A DNA stretch of 64,000 nucleotides from the human T2T-CHM13v2.0 reference genome, Homo sapiens. The notes below the pieces were generated by a model. That model was given only the letters and a program-made list of their open reading frames with translations, was not told the origin of the DNA and searched no databases. Both the position numbers and the translations under genes were made by a program. Below are positions 36,300 to 56,834 of the stretch, piece by piece. Where the stretch lies: NCBI RefSeq assembly GCF_009914755.1, contig NC_060926.1; one strand, written 5' to 3'. How positions within the stretch are numbered: position 1 is the stretch's first letter; each line of letters starts with the position of its first letter.

Positions 36300-36392
36300 T
36301 GCAGTCAAGTTCTAATCTAGAACTTTATGTAACTGAAACAAGGTATCTCCTTGTGTCTGGCTTTTTTTATTCTGCATAGTGATTTCAGATCC

Positions 36393-36430
<38 letters not shown>

Positions 36431-36800
36431 TGTGTCTCTGTGTGTGTGTGTGTGTGTAAGCAGGCCTCTCCTTTTTATCCATGAGTAGAATTCCAGTGGA
36501 TCAATATGTCACAGTGTATCCAATCTCCTAATGGTGGACATCTGGAGTGCTCCAGCTTTTTGCCATTATGCATAAAGCAGCTCTGAACAGTTTTGTATAT
36601 CTTTTCATATGTCCTCATTTCCACTGGATAAACTCTTAGAAATGACATTGCTCAGTCACCAGATAGGTAGGGTATGTTTGTTTTAATAAGATACTGCCAG
36701 TTTTTTAAGGGCTTGTGCCATTTTACATTTAGCAAAGTATATATGTGAACTTTGTTCCATATCTTTCTAATATCTGGTATTGTCAGGTTGTTTTATTTGT
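36300..36800 (-). mobile_element. L1M 3' fragment containing a (TG)n microsatellite (36395-36457)
   Basis: 'tgtgtctggctttttttattctgcatagtg', 'gtggacatctggagtgctccagctttttgccattatgcataaagcagctctgaac'. Confidence 0.7.
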
Positions 36801-37371
36801 CTTTTCCAAAACTGATAGTTGAATATGACATCACAAAACAAGCCTAATGTAATCTGTAATTACAAGAGTTTAGTTATTTATGCAGTAAAATGTTATTTAT
36901 ACTTTTTAAAGGATAATTTCCAACAAGTAGGTAAAATATCACGACCAATATATAAACATAGAATTTTATTTGATTACTGAGAGAATCAATAAGAAGTTAC
37001 AACCAATTCACAGGAAAATTTTAAAAATCATGGACCTATATGGGCCAAAAATTTATACATAAATGCAAAACTGGATTTTTTTCATGAGGGTAGGGTAGCA
37101 GGAATCCATTGTTTTCCCACTGAACAAAAGTTATTTCTGTGACTATAAATGAAAATTACTTGGATTGCTGTTATCTATAACTTACAGAGTAGTAAATAAA
37201 TAGCTTGAAAACAATTATATAGAGGCATAAAATCAGATAACCTTTAAGCATGTATTCCAACCAATGCATGTTTTTCTTGTGGTTGTTGAAGCCATTCAGT
37301 AATTTTTTGTTTCATTACAAAAACTTCCACAATTTTTTCTACATCCTATACTTAGTATTAAAATGATCTGT

Positions 37372-37622
37372 TTGATTTATTATAACTCCTCTTCTTCTCT
37401 ACACAGGTGGTATGCATTTAAAAGACTTATCGTATCATGTTATTTGGAGGCTAAATCTATATGGATAACTCAGAGAATAGTGATATAGTCTCTCCAATAA
37501 GTATGTTATCTTTAAAGAAAAAAAAAACATTCTTCCAACATGAAGCTGATCTAGCCAGTAATAGCTGTCTACTTGAGGTTCCATAACTGCTCCTGGATGA
37601 GGATGACAGAGAACTGGCCACG
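37372..37622 (+). repeat. Inverted repeat, left arm (~250 bp)
   Basis: Base-by-base reverse complement of 38359-38610. Confidence 0.97.
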
Positions 37623-37772
37623 TCAAGAGATAAAAATACCTAATTGCCAGTTCCATATGTGTGTGTCTGTGCATGTGAGAGAGAGAGAGAGCAAGAGAGA
37701 GACAGAGAGAGCGTGCGTGCGAGAGAGCACATTATTAGGAAGCATCCCTACTATTCTTTTTGAAATGAGGTC

Positions 37773-38131
37773 TGATATGGTTTGGTTCTGTGTCCCCACC
37801 CAAATCTCATGTCGAATTATTATCCCCATGTGTGTAGTGGCCTGGTGGGAGGTGATTGAGTCTTGGGGGCAGGCTTCCCCCTTGCTATTATTGTGATAGA
37901 GTTCTCATGAGATCTGGTTGTTTGATAAGTGTCTGGCACTTCCTCCTTCTCTCTCATTGTCTCCTACTGCCATGTAAGGATTGTCTTGCTTCCTCTTTGC
38001 CTTCTGCCATGATTGTAATTTTCCTGAGGCCTTCCCAGTCATGAAGAGCTGTACATCAATTAAACCTCTTTTGTTTATAAATTACCCAGTCTCCGTAGTT
38101 CTTTATAGCAGTGTGAAAATGGACAAATACA
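37773..38131 (+). mobile_element. THE1D/MSTA (MaLR) solo LTR
   Basis: 'tgatatggtttggttctgtgtccccacccaaatctcatg...caattaaacctctt...gcagtgtgaaaatggacaaataca'; 5-bp TSD aggtc/atgtc. Confidence 0.9.
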
Positions 38132-38358
38132 ATGTCATACTAATTCCTGTAGAAGTTAGGCACCATATCAGGTAGTACATATACATTTTTTTCTGACATT
38201 TTGTTAATATTAGGAAAATACTTACAAAGAAAATTGTATATCATACACACAGAGAAAGACACACATATTCTCTTAACAGAATCAGAACTATTGTTAGGGA
38301 ATTTTAGCAAAATCCAATAACTATAATTTGACTATTTAAAAAAGTGATTAATTACCTG

Positions 38359-38610
38359 CATGGCCAGTTCTCTGTCATCCTCATCCAGGAACAGTTACGG
38401 AACTTCAAGTAGACAGCTATTACTGGCTAGATCAGCTTCATGTTGGAAGAATGTTTTTTTTTTTCTTTAAAGATAACATACTTATTGGAGAGACTATATC
38501 ACTATTCTCTGAGTTATCCATATAGATTTAGCCTCCAAATAACATGATACGATAAGTCTTTTAAATGCATACCACCTGTGTAGAGAAGAAGAGGAGTTAT
38601 AATAAATCAA
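38359..38610 (-). repeat. Inverted repeat, right arm (~250 bp)
   Basis: Reverse complement of 37372-37622; differences only in one A-run length (10 vs 11) and 4 substitutions in the inner ~46 bp. Confidence 0.97.
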
Positions 38611-39119: not shown

Positions 39120-40265
39120 TTTTAAATAAAATACTGTGTCACAATGTGGATACAGATGTATTTGTAAAAAAATAATACAAGAGATTCTGTGCCTTGCCTA
39201 GTTTCTCTCAGTGATATCATCTTGAAACCTGTAGTACAATAGGGCAATCAGGATATTGACACTGATATAGTCAAGGTACTGAAAAGTCTATCATCACAAG
39301 GATACTTACTGTTGCTCTTTTACAGGCATACCCACCTCCCAAATCCCTATCTCTGACCCCTGGCAACCACTAATCTGTTCTCTATGTCTATAATTGTACC
39401 ATTTCAAGAATGTTTTATAAATGGAATCATACAGTATTTGAGCATTTGGAAGTGGCTTTTTTTCACTCCACACTATTATCTGGAAATTGATCCAGTTTGT
39501 TGTTATTAATAGTACATTTGTTATTATTGCTGGGTAGTATTCCATGGTATTGTGTAAGCTTTCACCTGTTGAAGGGCATCTGTGTTGTTTCCAATTTGGG
39601 GTCATTATGAATAATGCTATGAATATTCATGTGCAGAATTTTTGTGTGTGGAAATACATTTTTATTTCTCTATAACAGTGCACAAGAGTACATTTTGCTG
39701 GATCGTATGGGGGTTGCATGCTTTGTTTTATAAGAAACTTTCAGGTTGTTTCTAGAGTTCCCTTATTATTTTACATTCCTCTCACCAATGTTTGAGTATT
39801 CCAATTTCTCCACATCCCAACAACATTTGGTGGTGGTATTATATTTTATTTTAGCTATTTTGATAGGAGTGTAGTGATAGTTCCTTGTGATTTTTATTTC
39901 CATTGCCCTAATAGTTAATGATATTGAATATCTTTTCATGCACTGATTTGTCATCTATGTATCTTCTTTGAAAAAAACAAGTCTGTTCATGTTTTTTGCC
40001 TATTTTCTAATTTGATTTTTTTTTACTGTTGTTTTGAGAGTTCTTTATATATTCTTGATATGAGTCCTTTCTCAGATAATATGGTCTGCAAATATTTTCT
40101 CTCAGTCTGTAGATTTCCATTTCATCCTTTAGAATGAAGTTTCTCAGAATAATTTTAAAAAATTTTAATGAGGACCAACTTACTAATTTTTATGTATATG
40201 GACTGTAATTTTGGAGTCAAGTCTAAGAAATCTTTGCCTAGCACTAGATCCAGAAGATTTTCTCT
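39120..40265 (-). mobile_element. L1MC/L1MB 3' portion
   Basis: 'cctggcaaccactaatctgttctctatgtc...aatggaatcatacagtat', 'tttccaatttggggtcattatgaataatgctatgaatattcatgtgca'; minus ORFs 39306-39605 and 39766-39954 resemble the L1 ORF2 C-terminus. Confidence 0.85.
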
Positions 40266-40430: not shown

Positions 40431-41830
40431 AAATACATATACATATATACATGTATATATATGTATATACATATATATACGTGTATACACGTGTGTATAT
40501 GTATATACATACACGTGTGTATACGTGTGTATATGTATATACATACACGTGTGTATACGTGTGTATATGTATACACATACACGTGTGTATACGTGTGTAT
40601 ATGTATATACATACACGTGTATATCTATGTATATACATACACGTGTATATCTATGTATATACATACACGTGTATATACGTGTATATACATACACGTGTAT
40701 ATACGTGTATATACATACACGTGTATATACGTGTATATACATACACGTGTATATACGTGTATATACGTGTATATACATACACGTGTATATACGTGTATAT
40801 AAATGTATATACATACACGTGTATATACGTGTATATATGTATATACATACACGTGTATATACGTGTATATATGTATATACATACACGTGTATATACGTGT
40901 ATATATGTATATACATACACGTGTATATACGTGTATATATGTATATACATACACGTGTATATACGTGTATATATGTATATACATACACGTGTATATACGT
41001 GTATATATGTATATACATACACGTGTATATACGTATACACATATACATATACGTATACCTATATACGCATACGTGTATACGTATACCTATATACGCATAC
41101 GTGTATACGTATACCTATATACGCATACGTGTATACGTATACCTATACGCATACGTGTATACGTATACATGTGTATATACGTATATACGTATATATGAAT
41201 ATGTATTTACGTATATACGTATACATGTATACGCATACTCACGTATATACGTATACATGTATATACGCATACCCACATATGCGTATACATGTATACGCAT
41301 ATCCATATATGTGTGTATACATGTATACGCATATCCATATGTGTGTGTATACATGTATACGCATATCATATGTGTGTGTATACATGTATACGCATATCAT
41401 ATGTGTGTGTATACATGTATACGCATATCCATATGTGTGTATACATGTATATGCATATCCATATGTGTGTATACATGTATATGCATATCCATATGTGTGT
41501 ATACATGTATATGCATTCATATGTGTGTATACATGTATATGCATTCATGTGTGTATACATGTATATGCATATTCATGTGTGTATACATGTATATGCATAT
41601 TCATATATGTGTATATACATGTATATGCATATTCATATATGTGTATATACATGTATATGCATATTCATATATGTGTATATACATGTATATGCATATTCAT
41701 ATATATGTGTATATACATGTATATGCATATTCACATATATGTGTATATACATGTATATGCATATTCATATATATGTGTATATACATGTATATGCATATTC
41801 ATATATATGTGTATATACATATATATATAT
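40431..41830. repeat. ~1.4-kb alternating purine-pyrimidine minisatellite (28-34-bp units built from TA/CA/TG/CG)
   Basis: Units such as tatacatacacgtgtatatacgtgtatatatg and atacatgtatatgcatattcatatatgtgtat; source of the many spurious Y/T/C/I/V/H ORFs. Confidence 0.97.
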
Positions 41831-47314: not shown

Positions 47315-47653
47315 TAATATGTTTTGGGCCTGTCCCCACCCAAATCTTGTCTTGAATTCCCACATGTTGGAGGGACCTGGTGGGAGGTAATCGAATCACG
47401 GGGGGTCAGATCTTTCCCATGCTATTCTAGTGATAGTGAATGAGTCACATGAGATCTGATGATTTTAAAAAGAGGAGTTTCCCTGCACAAGCTGTCTTCT
47501 CTGCTGCCATGAGAGATGTGACTTTCACCTTCTGCCAAGTTTGTGAGGCCTCTCCAGCCTCATGGAACTGTAAGTCCAATAAACCTCTCCTTTTTTGTAA
47601 ATTGCACAGTTTTGAGTATGTTTTTATCAGCAGAGTGAAAATGGATTAATACA
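47315..47653 (+). mobile_element. THE1A/B solo LTR
   Basis: 'taatatgttttgggcctgtccccacccaaatc...ggaactgtaagtccaataaacctc...gtgaaaatggattaataca'; perfect 5-bp TSD tactg (47310-47314, 47654-47658). Confidence 0.92.
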
Positions 47654-56497: not shown

Positions 56498-56834
56498 TGT
56501 ATTAGTCTGTTTTCCATGATGCTGATAAAGACATACCAGAGACTTGGTAATTTATATAGGAAAAAGGGTTTAATTGTGAGGCCTCACAATCATGGCGGAA
56601 GGCAAGGAGGAGTAAGTCACGTCTTACATCGATGGCAGCAGGCATAGATAGAGCTTGTGCACGGAAACTCCTGTTTTTAAAACCATCAGATCTCATGAGA
56701 CTCATTCACTATCACAAAAACAGCAAAGGAAGACCCACCCCCATAATTCAGTTACCTCCCACCGGGTCCCTCCCACAACATAACATGTGGAATTCAAGAT
56801 GAGATTTGGGTGGGGACACAGCCAAATCATATCA
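56498..56834 (-). mobile_element. THE1B-like solo LTR
   Basis: 'tgtattagtctgttttccatgatgctgataaagacatacc...gagatttgggtggggacacagccaaatcatatca'; TSD ctttt/cttct. Confidence 0.92.

What the first reader, a model, noticed from the sequence alone, without database searches (positions are those of the whole stretch)
37372..38610. 250-bp inverted repeat with a perfectly homogenised outer 205 bp enclosing an old LTR: candidate flip-flop inversion or gene-conversion unit
Seen: 37372-37622 and 38359-38610 are reverse complements separated by ~736 bp. The outer ~205 bp are identical apart from one A-run (10 vs 11), even keeping a shared CpG. All 4 substitutions cluster in the inner ~46 bp. The arms are not a repeat family I recognise, and the spacer holds a diverged THE1D/MSTA LTR. 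Inference: the step in identity suggests an older duplication whose outer part is repeatedly homogenised by arm-to-arm conversion or recombination. That is the architecture of small recurrent polymorphic inversions, which would flip the LTR. If transcribed, it would form a ~250-bp dsRNA stem (ADAR/Dicer substrate).
Basis: partly seen in the sequence, partly recalled or inferred. Interest (0 to 1): 0.8.

Follow-up and report, generated by a model that had tools for sequence, protein, structure and literature searches.

The report
Small inverted duplication around old LTR
A 251-base stretch of ordinary single-copy human DNA lies twice, in opposite orientations, on either side of a much older retroviral LTR remnant in a gene desert; it looks like a neutral copying accident rather than a working device.

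Summary
Arms 37372-37622 and 38359-38610 are reverse complements 736 bp apart. They differ by four transitions, all in the inner 46 columns, and by one A10/A11 run. The T2T genome holds only these two copies of the arm. Homology stops sharply at all four ends, and the joins are blunt.

The spacer carries a real, complete solo LTR of the ERVL-MaLR group (37773-38131). It has TG..CA ends and flanking 5-mers matching at 4 of 5 positions. By pairwise distances it sits between labelled MSTA and THE1D copies (net K2P 0.034 and 0.041). Print dates these families to after the simian-tarsier split and before about 40-45 Myr ago. The LTR is far older than the repeat and is a bystander.

The identity step is real but rests on four sites, two at CpGs in a GC-richer zone. 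The chance probability is 0.005-0.008 for the inner end and about 0.02 for a cluster anywhere. Later arm-to-arm re-copying and chance are about equally likely.

A flip-flop inversion is untested: no ape or other human haplotypes were available. It is a priori unlikely, since validated human cases have arms of 654 bp or more. No transcript is annotated. Low interest.

The parts
37372..37622 (+). Left arm of the inverted repeat (251 bp, single-copy DNA)
   Evidence: pairs with 38359-38610; only two copies in the genome.
38359..38610 (-). Right arm of the inverted repeat (252 bp)
   Evidence: 98% identity over arm-query positions 1-249.
37577..37622 (+). Inner 46-column zone of the left arm holding all 4 substitutions. 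Its partner is 38359-38404. G+C is 57% against 32% in the outer zone.
37518..37527 (+). A10 run in the left arm. The partner T11 run at 38454-38464 is the only length difference between the arms.
37623..38358 (.). Spacer (736 bp): unique DNA plus a microsatellite plus the solo LTR
   Evidence: no arm-like homology inside. The right-hand 227 bp hit only itself in the genome.
37655..37730 (+). Compound (TG)n/(GA)n simple repeat, starting 33 bp from the inner end of the left arm
   Evidence: read by eye; family D1
37773..38131 (+). Complete solo LTR (359 bp) of the ERVL-MaLR group, MSTA/THE1D grade. No inner retroviral sequence is attached.
   Evidence: 7830 first-look candidates; 38 paralog rows scored at 79-83% identity; TG...CA ends; distances
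37768..37772 (+). Left flanking 5-mer AGGTC. The right flanking 5-mer ATGTC is at 38132-38136. The 4-of-5 match is read as the LTR's target-site duplication.
   Evidence: That MaLR makes 5-bp duplications is recalled, not from a call.

Best explanation
A replication or repair accident copied 251 bp of ordinary single-copy DNA in reverse orientation to a spot 736 bp away. It was either a template switch or a small inversion made by staggered breaks with fill-in and end joining. The DNA between the two copies already held a solo MaLR LTR that had been there for tens of millions of years, so the LTR is a bystander. The unit has no detectable function and lies in a gene desert about 70 kb from PCGEM1. 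Shown: the repeat, its uniqueness, its sharp blunt ends, the LTR's completeness and its far greater age. Inferred: the mechanism of origin and the date. One internal clock gives about 4-5 Myr (95% range 1-14 Myr) if the arms have simply diverged. If the inner zone alone keeps the true age, it gives about 22-29 Myr. For the identity step I give about even odds. Either the outer 205 bp were re-copied once or more between the arms (gene conversion or template switching), or four hits fell by chance in the GC- and CpG-richer inner zone.
For: Arms. Only two copies in the genome. No weaker homology inward (best E 0.087 over 23 nt) or outward (best E 0.009, 64-66% identity over 53-75 nt). The four joins are blunt, with at most 1 nt of microhomology and no filler copied from within 5 kb. 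The LTR is complete, with TG..CA ends and 4 of 5 matching flank bases. The LTR's own branch is 0.090 K2P, against 0.008 per arm for the repeat. Print: inverted duplications of unique DNA flanking inversions have a median of 321 bp, range 46 bp-1.9 kb, and 12 of the inversions with duplications carry sequence from one breakpoint only (PMC1885836, passages). Template switching creates and homogenises inverted repeats (PMC5453318 and PMC8604942, abstract starts in the listing; PMC8755829, passages). No gene, transcript or regulatory feature lies within 20 kb. No Rfam match inside the unit.
Against: No outgroup or second haplotype was available, so the ancestral state, the date and the mechanism are not shown. 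Blunt joins fit end joining better than microhomology-driven template switching but exclude neither. The clustering (P 0.005-0.02) is awkward for simple divergence. Both inner CpGs have decayed, one in each arm, which looks like elapsed time rather than copying error. The clock uses an LTR branch measured against its 29 best-matching paralogs, a biased subset. It also uses a print bracket of 45-60 Myr that I chose inside the printed limits of under 70 Myr and about 40-45 Myr.
Confidence: 0.72

Rival explanations
1. An old inverted duplication, catarrhine-age or so, has its outer 205 bp kept identical by repeated arm-to-arm conversion. Crossovers between the arms flip the LTR-bearing spacer recurrently, so the orientation may be polymorphic today.
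For: All 4 substitutions lie in the inner 46 columns (P 0.001-0.008 for the inner end, about 0.02 anywhere). Both inner CpGs have decayed while the outer one is kept. Arms of 251 bp are at the upper end of the 50-250 bp minimal homology quoted for eukaryotic recombination (PMC8755829, passages). Alu-sized inverted pairs did mediate 28 of 252 human-chimpanzee inversions (PMC2603318, passages). The ratio of repeat length to inversion length correlates with inversion frequency (PMC6748972, passages).
Against: The case rests on four sites seen after the fact. The arms are below the 654 bp-24.2 kb range of the 24 validated NAHR inversions. The 28 Alu-Alu inversions arose among roughly 1.2 million Alus (number from the same paper), so the rate per pair is very low by my inference. 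No orientation data of any kind could be consulted. Conversion does not require inversion.
Confidence: 0.12
2. The arms are the footprint, not the cause, of one small inversion. A staggered break on one side of a segment was filled in and rejoined in the inverted order, leaving the 251 bp duplicated at both ends of the now inverted roughly 736-bp segment. This is one of the two origins allowed in the best explanation, listed separately because it predicts that the LTR's present orientation is the derived one.
For: The architecture matches the model exactly: unique DNA is duplicated in inverted orientation at both ends of a segment, from one breakpoint only. The size lies within the reported 46 bp-1.9 kb range (PMC1885836). 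The joins are blunt. A (TG)n/(GA)n tract lies 33 bp from one junction.
Against: The model was documented in Drosophila. In the papers I read I saw no human example of this size. A 251-nt stagger is long. The one old repeat that could have served as an internal marker ends at its natural terminus before the arm, so nothing here shows that the spacer was ever in the other orientation.
Confidence: 0.3
3. The whole 1,239-bp unit is a foldback or long-terminal-inverted-repeat DNA transposon.
For: It has long terminal inverted repeats with sharp outer ends.
Against: The genome holds only the two arms. There is no target-site duplication: the flanks read ...ATCTGT and CTAATG.... The interior is unique DNA plus an LTR with its own flank duplication.
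Confidence: 0.02
4. The second arm is an assembly artefact, for example a chimeric palindromic read.
For: None found.
Against: The arms differ at 4 substitutions and 1 indel and are separated by 736 bp of unrelated DNA containing an old LTR. Palindromic read artefacts are expected to be exact and unspaced, which is my own knowledge.
Confidence: 0.02

Closest known systems
Inversion-associated inverted duplications (staggered-break model; Ranz et al. 2007, PMC1885836)
   Same: Ancestrally unique DNA of a few hundred bp is duplicated in inverted orientation at the two ends of a segment, often from one breakpoint only. The joins are blunt.
   Different: Those cases were documented in Drosophila for inversions of chromosomal scale. 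Here the enclosed segment is only 736 bp, and the ancestral orientation is unknown.
Short-range template-switch mutations and repeat homogenisation (PMC5453318, PMC7954356, PMC8604942)
   Same: A local replication error writes a reverse-complement copy of nearby sequence. Later switches between arms make them identical and can invert the spacer.
   Different: The events I know of are typically tens of bases long and close together (my knowledge; only the abstract starts were seen). Here the copy is 251 bp long and lies 736 bp away, and the joins show no microhomology.
Human NAHR inversions between inverted repeats (PMC6748972, PMC3961182)
   Same: Highly identical inverted repeats flank a short segment, and conversion between the arms is expected.
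   Different: The validated cases have arms of 654 bp-24.2 kb, and both orientations were observed. Here the arms are 251 bp and no orientation data exist.
Retrotransposon recombination-mediated inversions between inverted Alu pairs (PMC2603318)
   Same: The homology is about 300 bp, in inverted orientation, within a few kb.
   Different: Those arms are independent insertions of a mobile element. Here the arms are a local duplication of unique DNA and are far more alike (98.4%).
MSTA / THE1D solo LTRs of ERVL-MaLR (PMC10735291)
   Same: The spacer LTR has the length, the ends, the flank duplication, thousands of paralogs, and distances that place it between labelled MSTA and THE1D copies.
   Different: It is 359 bp, against 375-391 bp for the labelled THE1D and MSTA copies. 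It could not be assigned to one of the two names without a curated LTR library.

Membership tests
ERVL-MaLR LTR (MST/THE1 group) | LTR of roughly 350-390 bp with TG...CA termini | tested here: met
   359 bp, starting TGATATGG and ending CAAATACA. Labelled copies are 343-391 bp.
ERVL-MaLR LTR (MST/THE1 group) | Short target-site duplication flanking the element (5 bp, recalled) | tested here: met
   AGGTC and ATGTC match at 4 of 5 positions. One mismatch is plausible at this age.
ERVL-MaLR LTR (MST/THE1 group) | Full-length colinear similarity to many genomic copies and to copies named in print | tested here: met
   7830 first-look candidates. Of 39 rows scored, 38 are non-self at 79-83% identity over about 355-370 of the 371 query bases. 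Labelled LTRs were found at 7 of the 8 gene loci fetched first, with IL23R a miss. Further copies were found at RHOBTB3 and DNAH7.
MSTA versus THE1D (subfamily name) | Smallest net distance to copies of that name | tested here: inconclusive
   Net K2P of the window's 29-paralog group is 0.034 to the MSTA group, 0.041 to the THE1D group and 0.077 to the THE1B group. MSTA to THE1D is 0.078. The copy is intermediate. Labelled THE1A copies are farthest (0.27-0.28). The printed ZNF430/100 core is present with 1 mismatch at LTR position 195, but a 9-mer with mismatches is weak evidence.
Full-length MaLR provirus | Inner region and a second LTR | tested here: not met
   The LTR is flanked directly by its duplicated 5-mers and by DNA that hits only itself. 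It is a solo LTR with no retroviral gene, so there are no breaks to count.
IR-mediated (NAHR) recurrent inversion | Inverted repeats more than 90% identical at both ends | tested here: met
   247 of 251 aligned columns are identical.
IR-mediated (NAHR) recurrent inversion | Arm length in the range of validated human cases (654 bp-24.2 kb) | tested here: not met
   The arms are 251/252 bp. The range is from PMC6748972.
IR-mediated (NAHR) recurrent inversion | Both orientations seen among haplotypes or species; arms grouping by species | not testable with these tools
   No ape genomes, reads or pangenome were available. Supplements of the inversion catalogues were closed.
Inversion with breakpoint duplication (staggered breaks) | Inverted duplication of ancestrally unique DNA flanking the segment, tens of bp to about 2 kb | tested here: met
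   size range from PMC1885836
Inversion with breakpoint duplication (staggered breaks) | Outgroup with a single copy and the opposite orientation | not testable with these tools
   There is no outgroup. The internal marker attempt was uninformative.
Foldback / long-TIR transposon | Target-site duplication and multiple genomic copies | tested here: not met
   No duplication at the outer joins. Only the two arms in the genome.
Long dsRNA (ADAR/Dicer substrate) | Long uninterrupted intramolecular stem | tested here: met
   The arms pair end to end in the predicted fold, MFE -617.2 kcal/mol.
Long dsRNA (ADAR/Dicer substrate) | The locus is transcribed across both arms; editing or small RNAs are present | tested here: inconclusive
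   No transcript is annotated within 20 kb and the window has no gene. Expression, editing and small-RNA data were not on hand.

The most novel reading that the evidence does not exclude
The repeat is catarrhine-age. Its outer 205 bp are kept identical by ongoing arm-to-arm conversion, and the 736-bp LTR-bearing spacer still toggles. That would make it the shortest-armed recurrent inversion known in humans, below the 654-bp floor of the validated set, and a natural gauge of the minimal homology for human ectopic recombination.
Probability: 0.06. Interest if true: 0.45.

Novelty: new member of a known kind. Interest (0 to 1): 0.18.

Why it matters
It matters little on its own. It is a tidy example of how a short inverted repeat of unique DNA arises and ages in a neutral region. 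The two age models make clear and different predictions about which primates carry the second arm. If both arms proved old and co-evolving, the locus would be a small natural test of how short a homology can sustain conversion in the human germline. The LTR adds nothing unusual: it is one of tens of thousands of MSTA/THE1D solo LTRs.

Tried and rejected
Internal outgroup. I hoped an old interspersed repeat in the left flank (36886-37360) would run into the arm or be cut by it, which would reveal the ancestral order. It ends at its natural terminus in the window and in all 3 paralogs compared, so it is uninformative.

Residual homology. I looked for weaker similarity inward and outward of the arms, as a larger decayed duplication would leave. 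None was found.

Junction clues. I looked for microhomology or templated filler at the four joins. There is at most 1 nt of microhomology, and one 12-nt chance-level hit (E 4.2).

Transposon reading. Rejected.

Known RNA. There were 123 sub-threshold Rfam hits and none at gathering score. None lies inside the unit: 122 lie in the 40432-41000 minisatellite and 1 at 36318-36441.

Locus in print. A search for coordinate numbers returned 4 papers, all irrelevant. It used the T2T number, plus hg38 and hg19 numbers that I derived from recalled PCGEM1 coordinates. The terms 'chr2' and '2q32' had 0 occurrences in PMC13629690, and 'chr2' had 0 in PMC8755829. The supplementary tables of the inversion catalogues were closed and may list this locus. 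These include Supplementary Data 1 of PMC6748972, the tables of PMC13629690, and Porubsky et al. 2022, which I did not open.

Labelled LTRs. The gene-LTR pairings in Table 1 of the review PMC10948482 disagree with the primary paper PMC6908575, so I used the primary paper. IL23R gave no LTR in the 10 kb fetched. DNAH7 gave three candidates, so its THE1C label is uncertain. The THE1D label for the IL2RB copy is from my memory. The THOC5 copy lies about 5.5 kb inside the annotated gene, so its THE1A label is less sure.

The printed 9-mer core was too short to discriminate subfamilies.

Full report
**Observation**

The tool finds 37372-37527 paired with 38455-38610 (156 nt, 100% complementary) and 37511-37620 paired with 38361-38470 (110 nt, 95%). 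A local alignment gives 249 columns with 246 identical, three mismatches and a single one-base gap in an A-run.

The four substitutions (37577, 37583, 37590, 37621) are all transitions and all lie in the inner 46 columns. The outer 205 aligned columns are identical. The A-run is 10 against 11. One CpG (37431-37432) is kept in both arms. The spacer is 736 bp.

In the 64-kb window this is the only inverted pair of that quality. The other pairs of 80 nt or more within 10 kb are 71-75% matches inside a minisatellite, one 80-nt 89% pair and one 85-nt 73% pair.

**Anatomy**

From left to right the locus reads as follows:
- An old interspersed repeat (36886-37360; 64-67% identical to paralogs) that ends before the arm.
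- The left arm (37372-37622).
- 150 bp of spacer containing a compound (TG)n/(GA)n tract (about 37655-37730).
- A 359-bp LTR (37773-38131).
- 227 bp that match nothing else in the genome.
- The right arm (38359-38610).
- Unique DNA, then another old repeat from about 39145.

The window has no annotated gene, and the nearest genes are TMEFF2 (about 484 kb away) and PCGEM1 (about 70 kb away). No transcript or regulatory feature is annotated within 20 kb; only masked-repeat intervals are listed.

**Is the virus remnant real, and what family is it?**

The LTR is real and complete. It begins TGATATGG and ends CAAATACA. It is flanked by AGGTC and ATGTC, which match at 4 of 5 positions. I read these as its target-site duplication; that MaLR elements make 5-bp duplications is my recollection. 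A genome search gave 7830 first-look candidates. Of the 39 rows scored, the 38 non-self rows align almost end to end at 79-83% identity.

Because its flank duplication directly abuts unique DNA, it is a solo LTR. No inner retroviral sequence is present, so there are no gene breaks to count.

To name it without any consensus, I located copies that papers name:
- THE1A at SQOR and THOC5 (PMC10735291, section 11 read).
- THE1B near CRH (PMC10204343, passages) and at CSF1R and TNFRSF11A (PMC6558280, passages and abstract).
- THE1D 20 kb upstream of WNT5A (PMC6558280) and at IL2RB (label recalled).
- MSTA about 25 kb upstream of RHOBTB3 (PMC6908575, passages).
- An uncertain THE1C near DNAH7.

Labelled LTRs were found at 7 of the 8 gene loci fetched first; IL23R gave none. 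RHOBTB3 and DNAH7 gave further copies.

The mean K2P distances from each labelled copy to the window copy's 29 best paralogs are:

| Labelled copy | Mean K2P |
|---|---|
| MSTA | 0.218 |
| THE1D | 0.223-0.226 |
| THE1C? | 0.228 |
| THE1B | 0.249-0.254 |
| THE1A | 0.269-0.283 |

I then compared groups of ten paralogs of the labelled MSTA, THE1D and THE1B copies. The net distances from the window's group are 0.034 to MSTA, 0.041 to THE1D and 0.077 to THE1B. MSTA to THE1D is 0.078. The two smallest distances add up to the MSTA-THE1D distance, so the copy lies on the path between those two names.

I did not look at inner sequences.

**Age of the LTR**

The window copy's own branch is 0.090 K2P (0.086 without CpG sites). 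I estimated it from all triplets with its 29 paralogs. This is a lower-biased figure, because the paralogs were chosen for similarity.

Its best paralogs are less similar (79-83%) than those of the labelled MSTA (82-85%), THE1D (82-86%) and THE1B (86-88%) copies. That puts it at the old end.

[quoted passage not shown] Print also states that MaLR activity ran until about 45 Myr ago, with THE1 more than 40 Myr old (PMC10735291, passages and sections 3 and 11; PMC10204343, passages). THE1B and THE1A have Kimura divergences of 10.2% and 8.4% (PMC10204343). An insertion roughly 45-65 Myr ago fits all of this.

**The arms**

The arm query hit only the two arms in the whole T2T genome. The tool warns that it skips very common words and that some regions are closed, so this means 'no recognisable family', not proof of absence.

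Homology ends abruptly. Between the inner flanks the best match is 23 nt at E 0.087. Between the outer flanks there is nothing better than E 0.009, at 64-66% identity over 53-75 nt. The four joins show at most one base of microhomology and no filler copied from within 5 kb. There is no target-site duplication around the unit. The duplicated piece was therefore about 251 bp of unique DNA with clean ends.

**The identity step**

Placing four substitutions at random, the chance that all fall in the inner 46 columns is 0.0012. Two of the four are at CpGs, and the inner zone is GC-richer (57% against 32%). With CpG sites weighted 10-15-fold and other G/C sites 2-3-fold, the chance is 0.005-0.008. 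The chance of a cluster this tight anywhere in the arm is about 0.02.

The step is thus probably not pure chance, but it rests on four sites noticed after the fact. The two inner CpGs have decayed in different arms. I infer this because loss of CpG is far likelier than gain. That looks like elapsed time rather than copying error.

Using the LTR as an internal clock (0.090 taken as 45-60 Myr), the ages are:

| Part of the arm counted | Point estimate | 95% range |
|---|---|---|
| Whole arm | 4-5 Myr | 1.1-13.7 Myr |
| Inner zone alone | 22-29 Myr | 5.9-74 Myr |

The two models therefore differ on whether Old World monkeys should carry both arms.

**Mechanism**

Two origins are on offer in print.

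The first is an inversion made by staggered breaks, fill-in and end joining. It leaves exactly this picture: unique DNA duplicated in inverted orientation at both ends of the inverted piece. In Drosophila the duplications have a median of 321 bp, range 46 bp to 1.9 kb. In 12 of the inversions with duplications, the duplicated sequence comes from one breakpoint only (PMC1885836, passages). In that case the arms are the result of an inversion, not its cause.

The second is a replication template switch, which writes a reverse-complement copy of nearby DNA. Later switches between arms can make them identical and can invert the spacer (PMC5453318 and PMC8604942, abstract starts in the listing; PMC8755829, passages).

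The blunt joins lean toward end joining but do not decide. My attempt to use the left-flank old repeat as an internal marker failed, because that repeat ends at its natural terminus in all copies.

**Inversion toggling**

Arms of 251 bp sit at the upper end of the 50-250 bp minimal homology quoted for eukaryotic recombination (PMC8755829). Alu-sized inverted pairs did produce 28 of 252 human-chimpanzee inversions (PMC2603318). But those 28 arose among roughly 1.2 million Alus. The 24 validated human NAHR inversions have arms of 654 bp-24.2 kb (PMC6748972).

I therefore think an occasional conversion between the arms is plausible, and a recurrent or currently polymorphic flip is unlikely. Neither could be tested: no ape genome, no second human haplotype and no reads were available, and the catalogues' supplementary tables were closed.

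**The dsRNA idea**

Folded as RNA, the 1,239-nt unit pairs its arms end to end (MFE -617.2 kcal/mol). Any such repeat must do this. No transcript is annotated nearby and no Rfam family matches inside the unit. Without expression data the idea has no support.

**Verdict**

The unit is best read as a neutral local inverted duplication of unique DNA around a much older MSTA/THE1D solo LTR. Whether the outer part was later re-copied between the arms is an open question at about even odds. The flip-flop reading is possible but unsupported. It is a new instance of known kinds of event and of low interest, unless ape and pangenome comparisons show old, co-evolving arms or both orientations.

Noticed in passing
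window 40433-41824: A self-complementary TA/CG-rich minisatellite of about 1.4 kb (periods 26-34, up to about 45 copies). It is masked in the annotation. It produces many sub-threshold miRNA-like Rfam hits, none at gathering score, and 71-75% inverted-repeat calls.
   Followed up: partly
window 36395-36457 and 37655-37730: A (TG)31 microsatellite lies 0.9 kb left of the unit. A compound (TG)n/(GA)n tract lies inside the spacer, 33 bp from the inner end of the left arm, and is a possible fragile spot next to one junction.
   Followed up: no
window 36886-37360: An old interspersed repeat of about 450 bp (64-73% identity among copies). It ends at its natural terminus 12-30 bp before the left arm. 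The family was not named.
   Followed up: partly
window 39145-39600: Another old repeat (1695 first-look candidates, 69-78% identity to paralogs) in the right flank. Not named.
   Followed up: no
window 47414-47493 and 56652-56731: An 80-nt inverted pair, 89% complementary and 9.2 kb apart. It is probably two copies of a mobile element.
   Followed up: no
G000 chr5:96207449-96207839 and 96214520-96214909 (in L055): Two MSTA-like LTRs upstream of RHOBTB3, 7 kb apart in the same orientation, are 99% identical (K2P 0.01). That is far closer than any other pair, which suggests a recent local duplication or conversion.
   Followed up: no
G000 chr3:45039149-45039520 (-) and 45039586-45039954 (+): Two THE1D-like LTRs lie in opposite orientation only about 65 bp apart (rows). 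This is another closely spaced inverted pair, here made of a mobile element.
   Followed up: no
literature: PMC10948482 Table 1 versus PMC6908575: The review's table pairs genes with oocyte LTR promoters differently from the primary paper. For example, RHOBTB3 is given as LTR12C in the review and MSTA in the primary paper, and SCIN as THE1C versus LTR12C. It looks like a row shift.
   Followed up: partly
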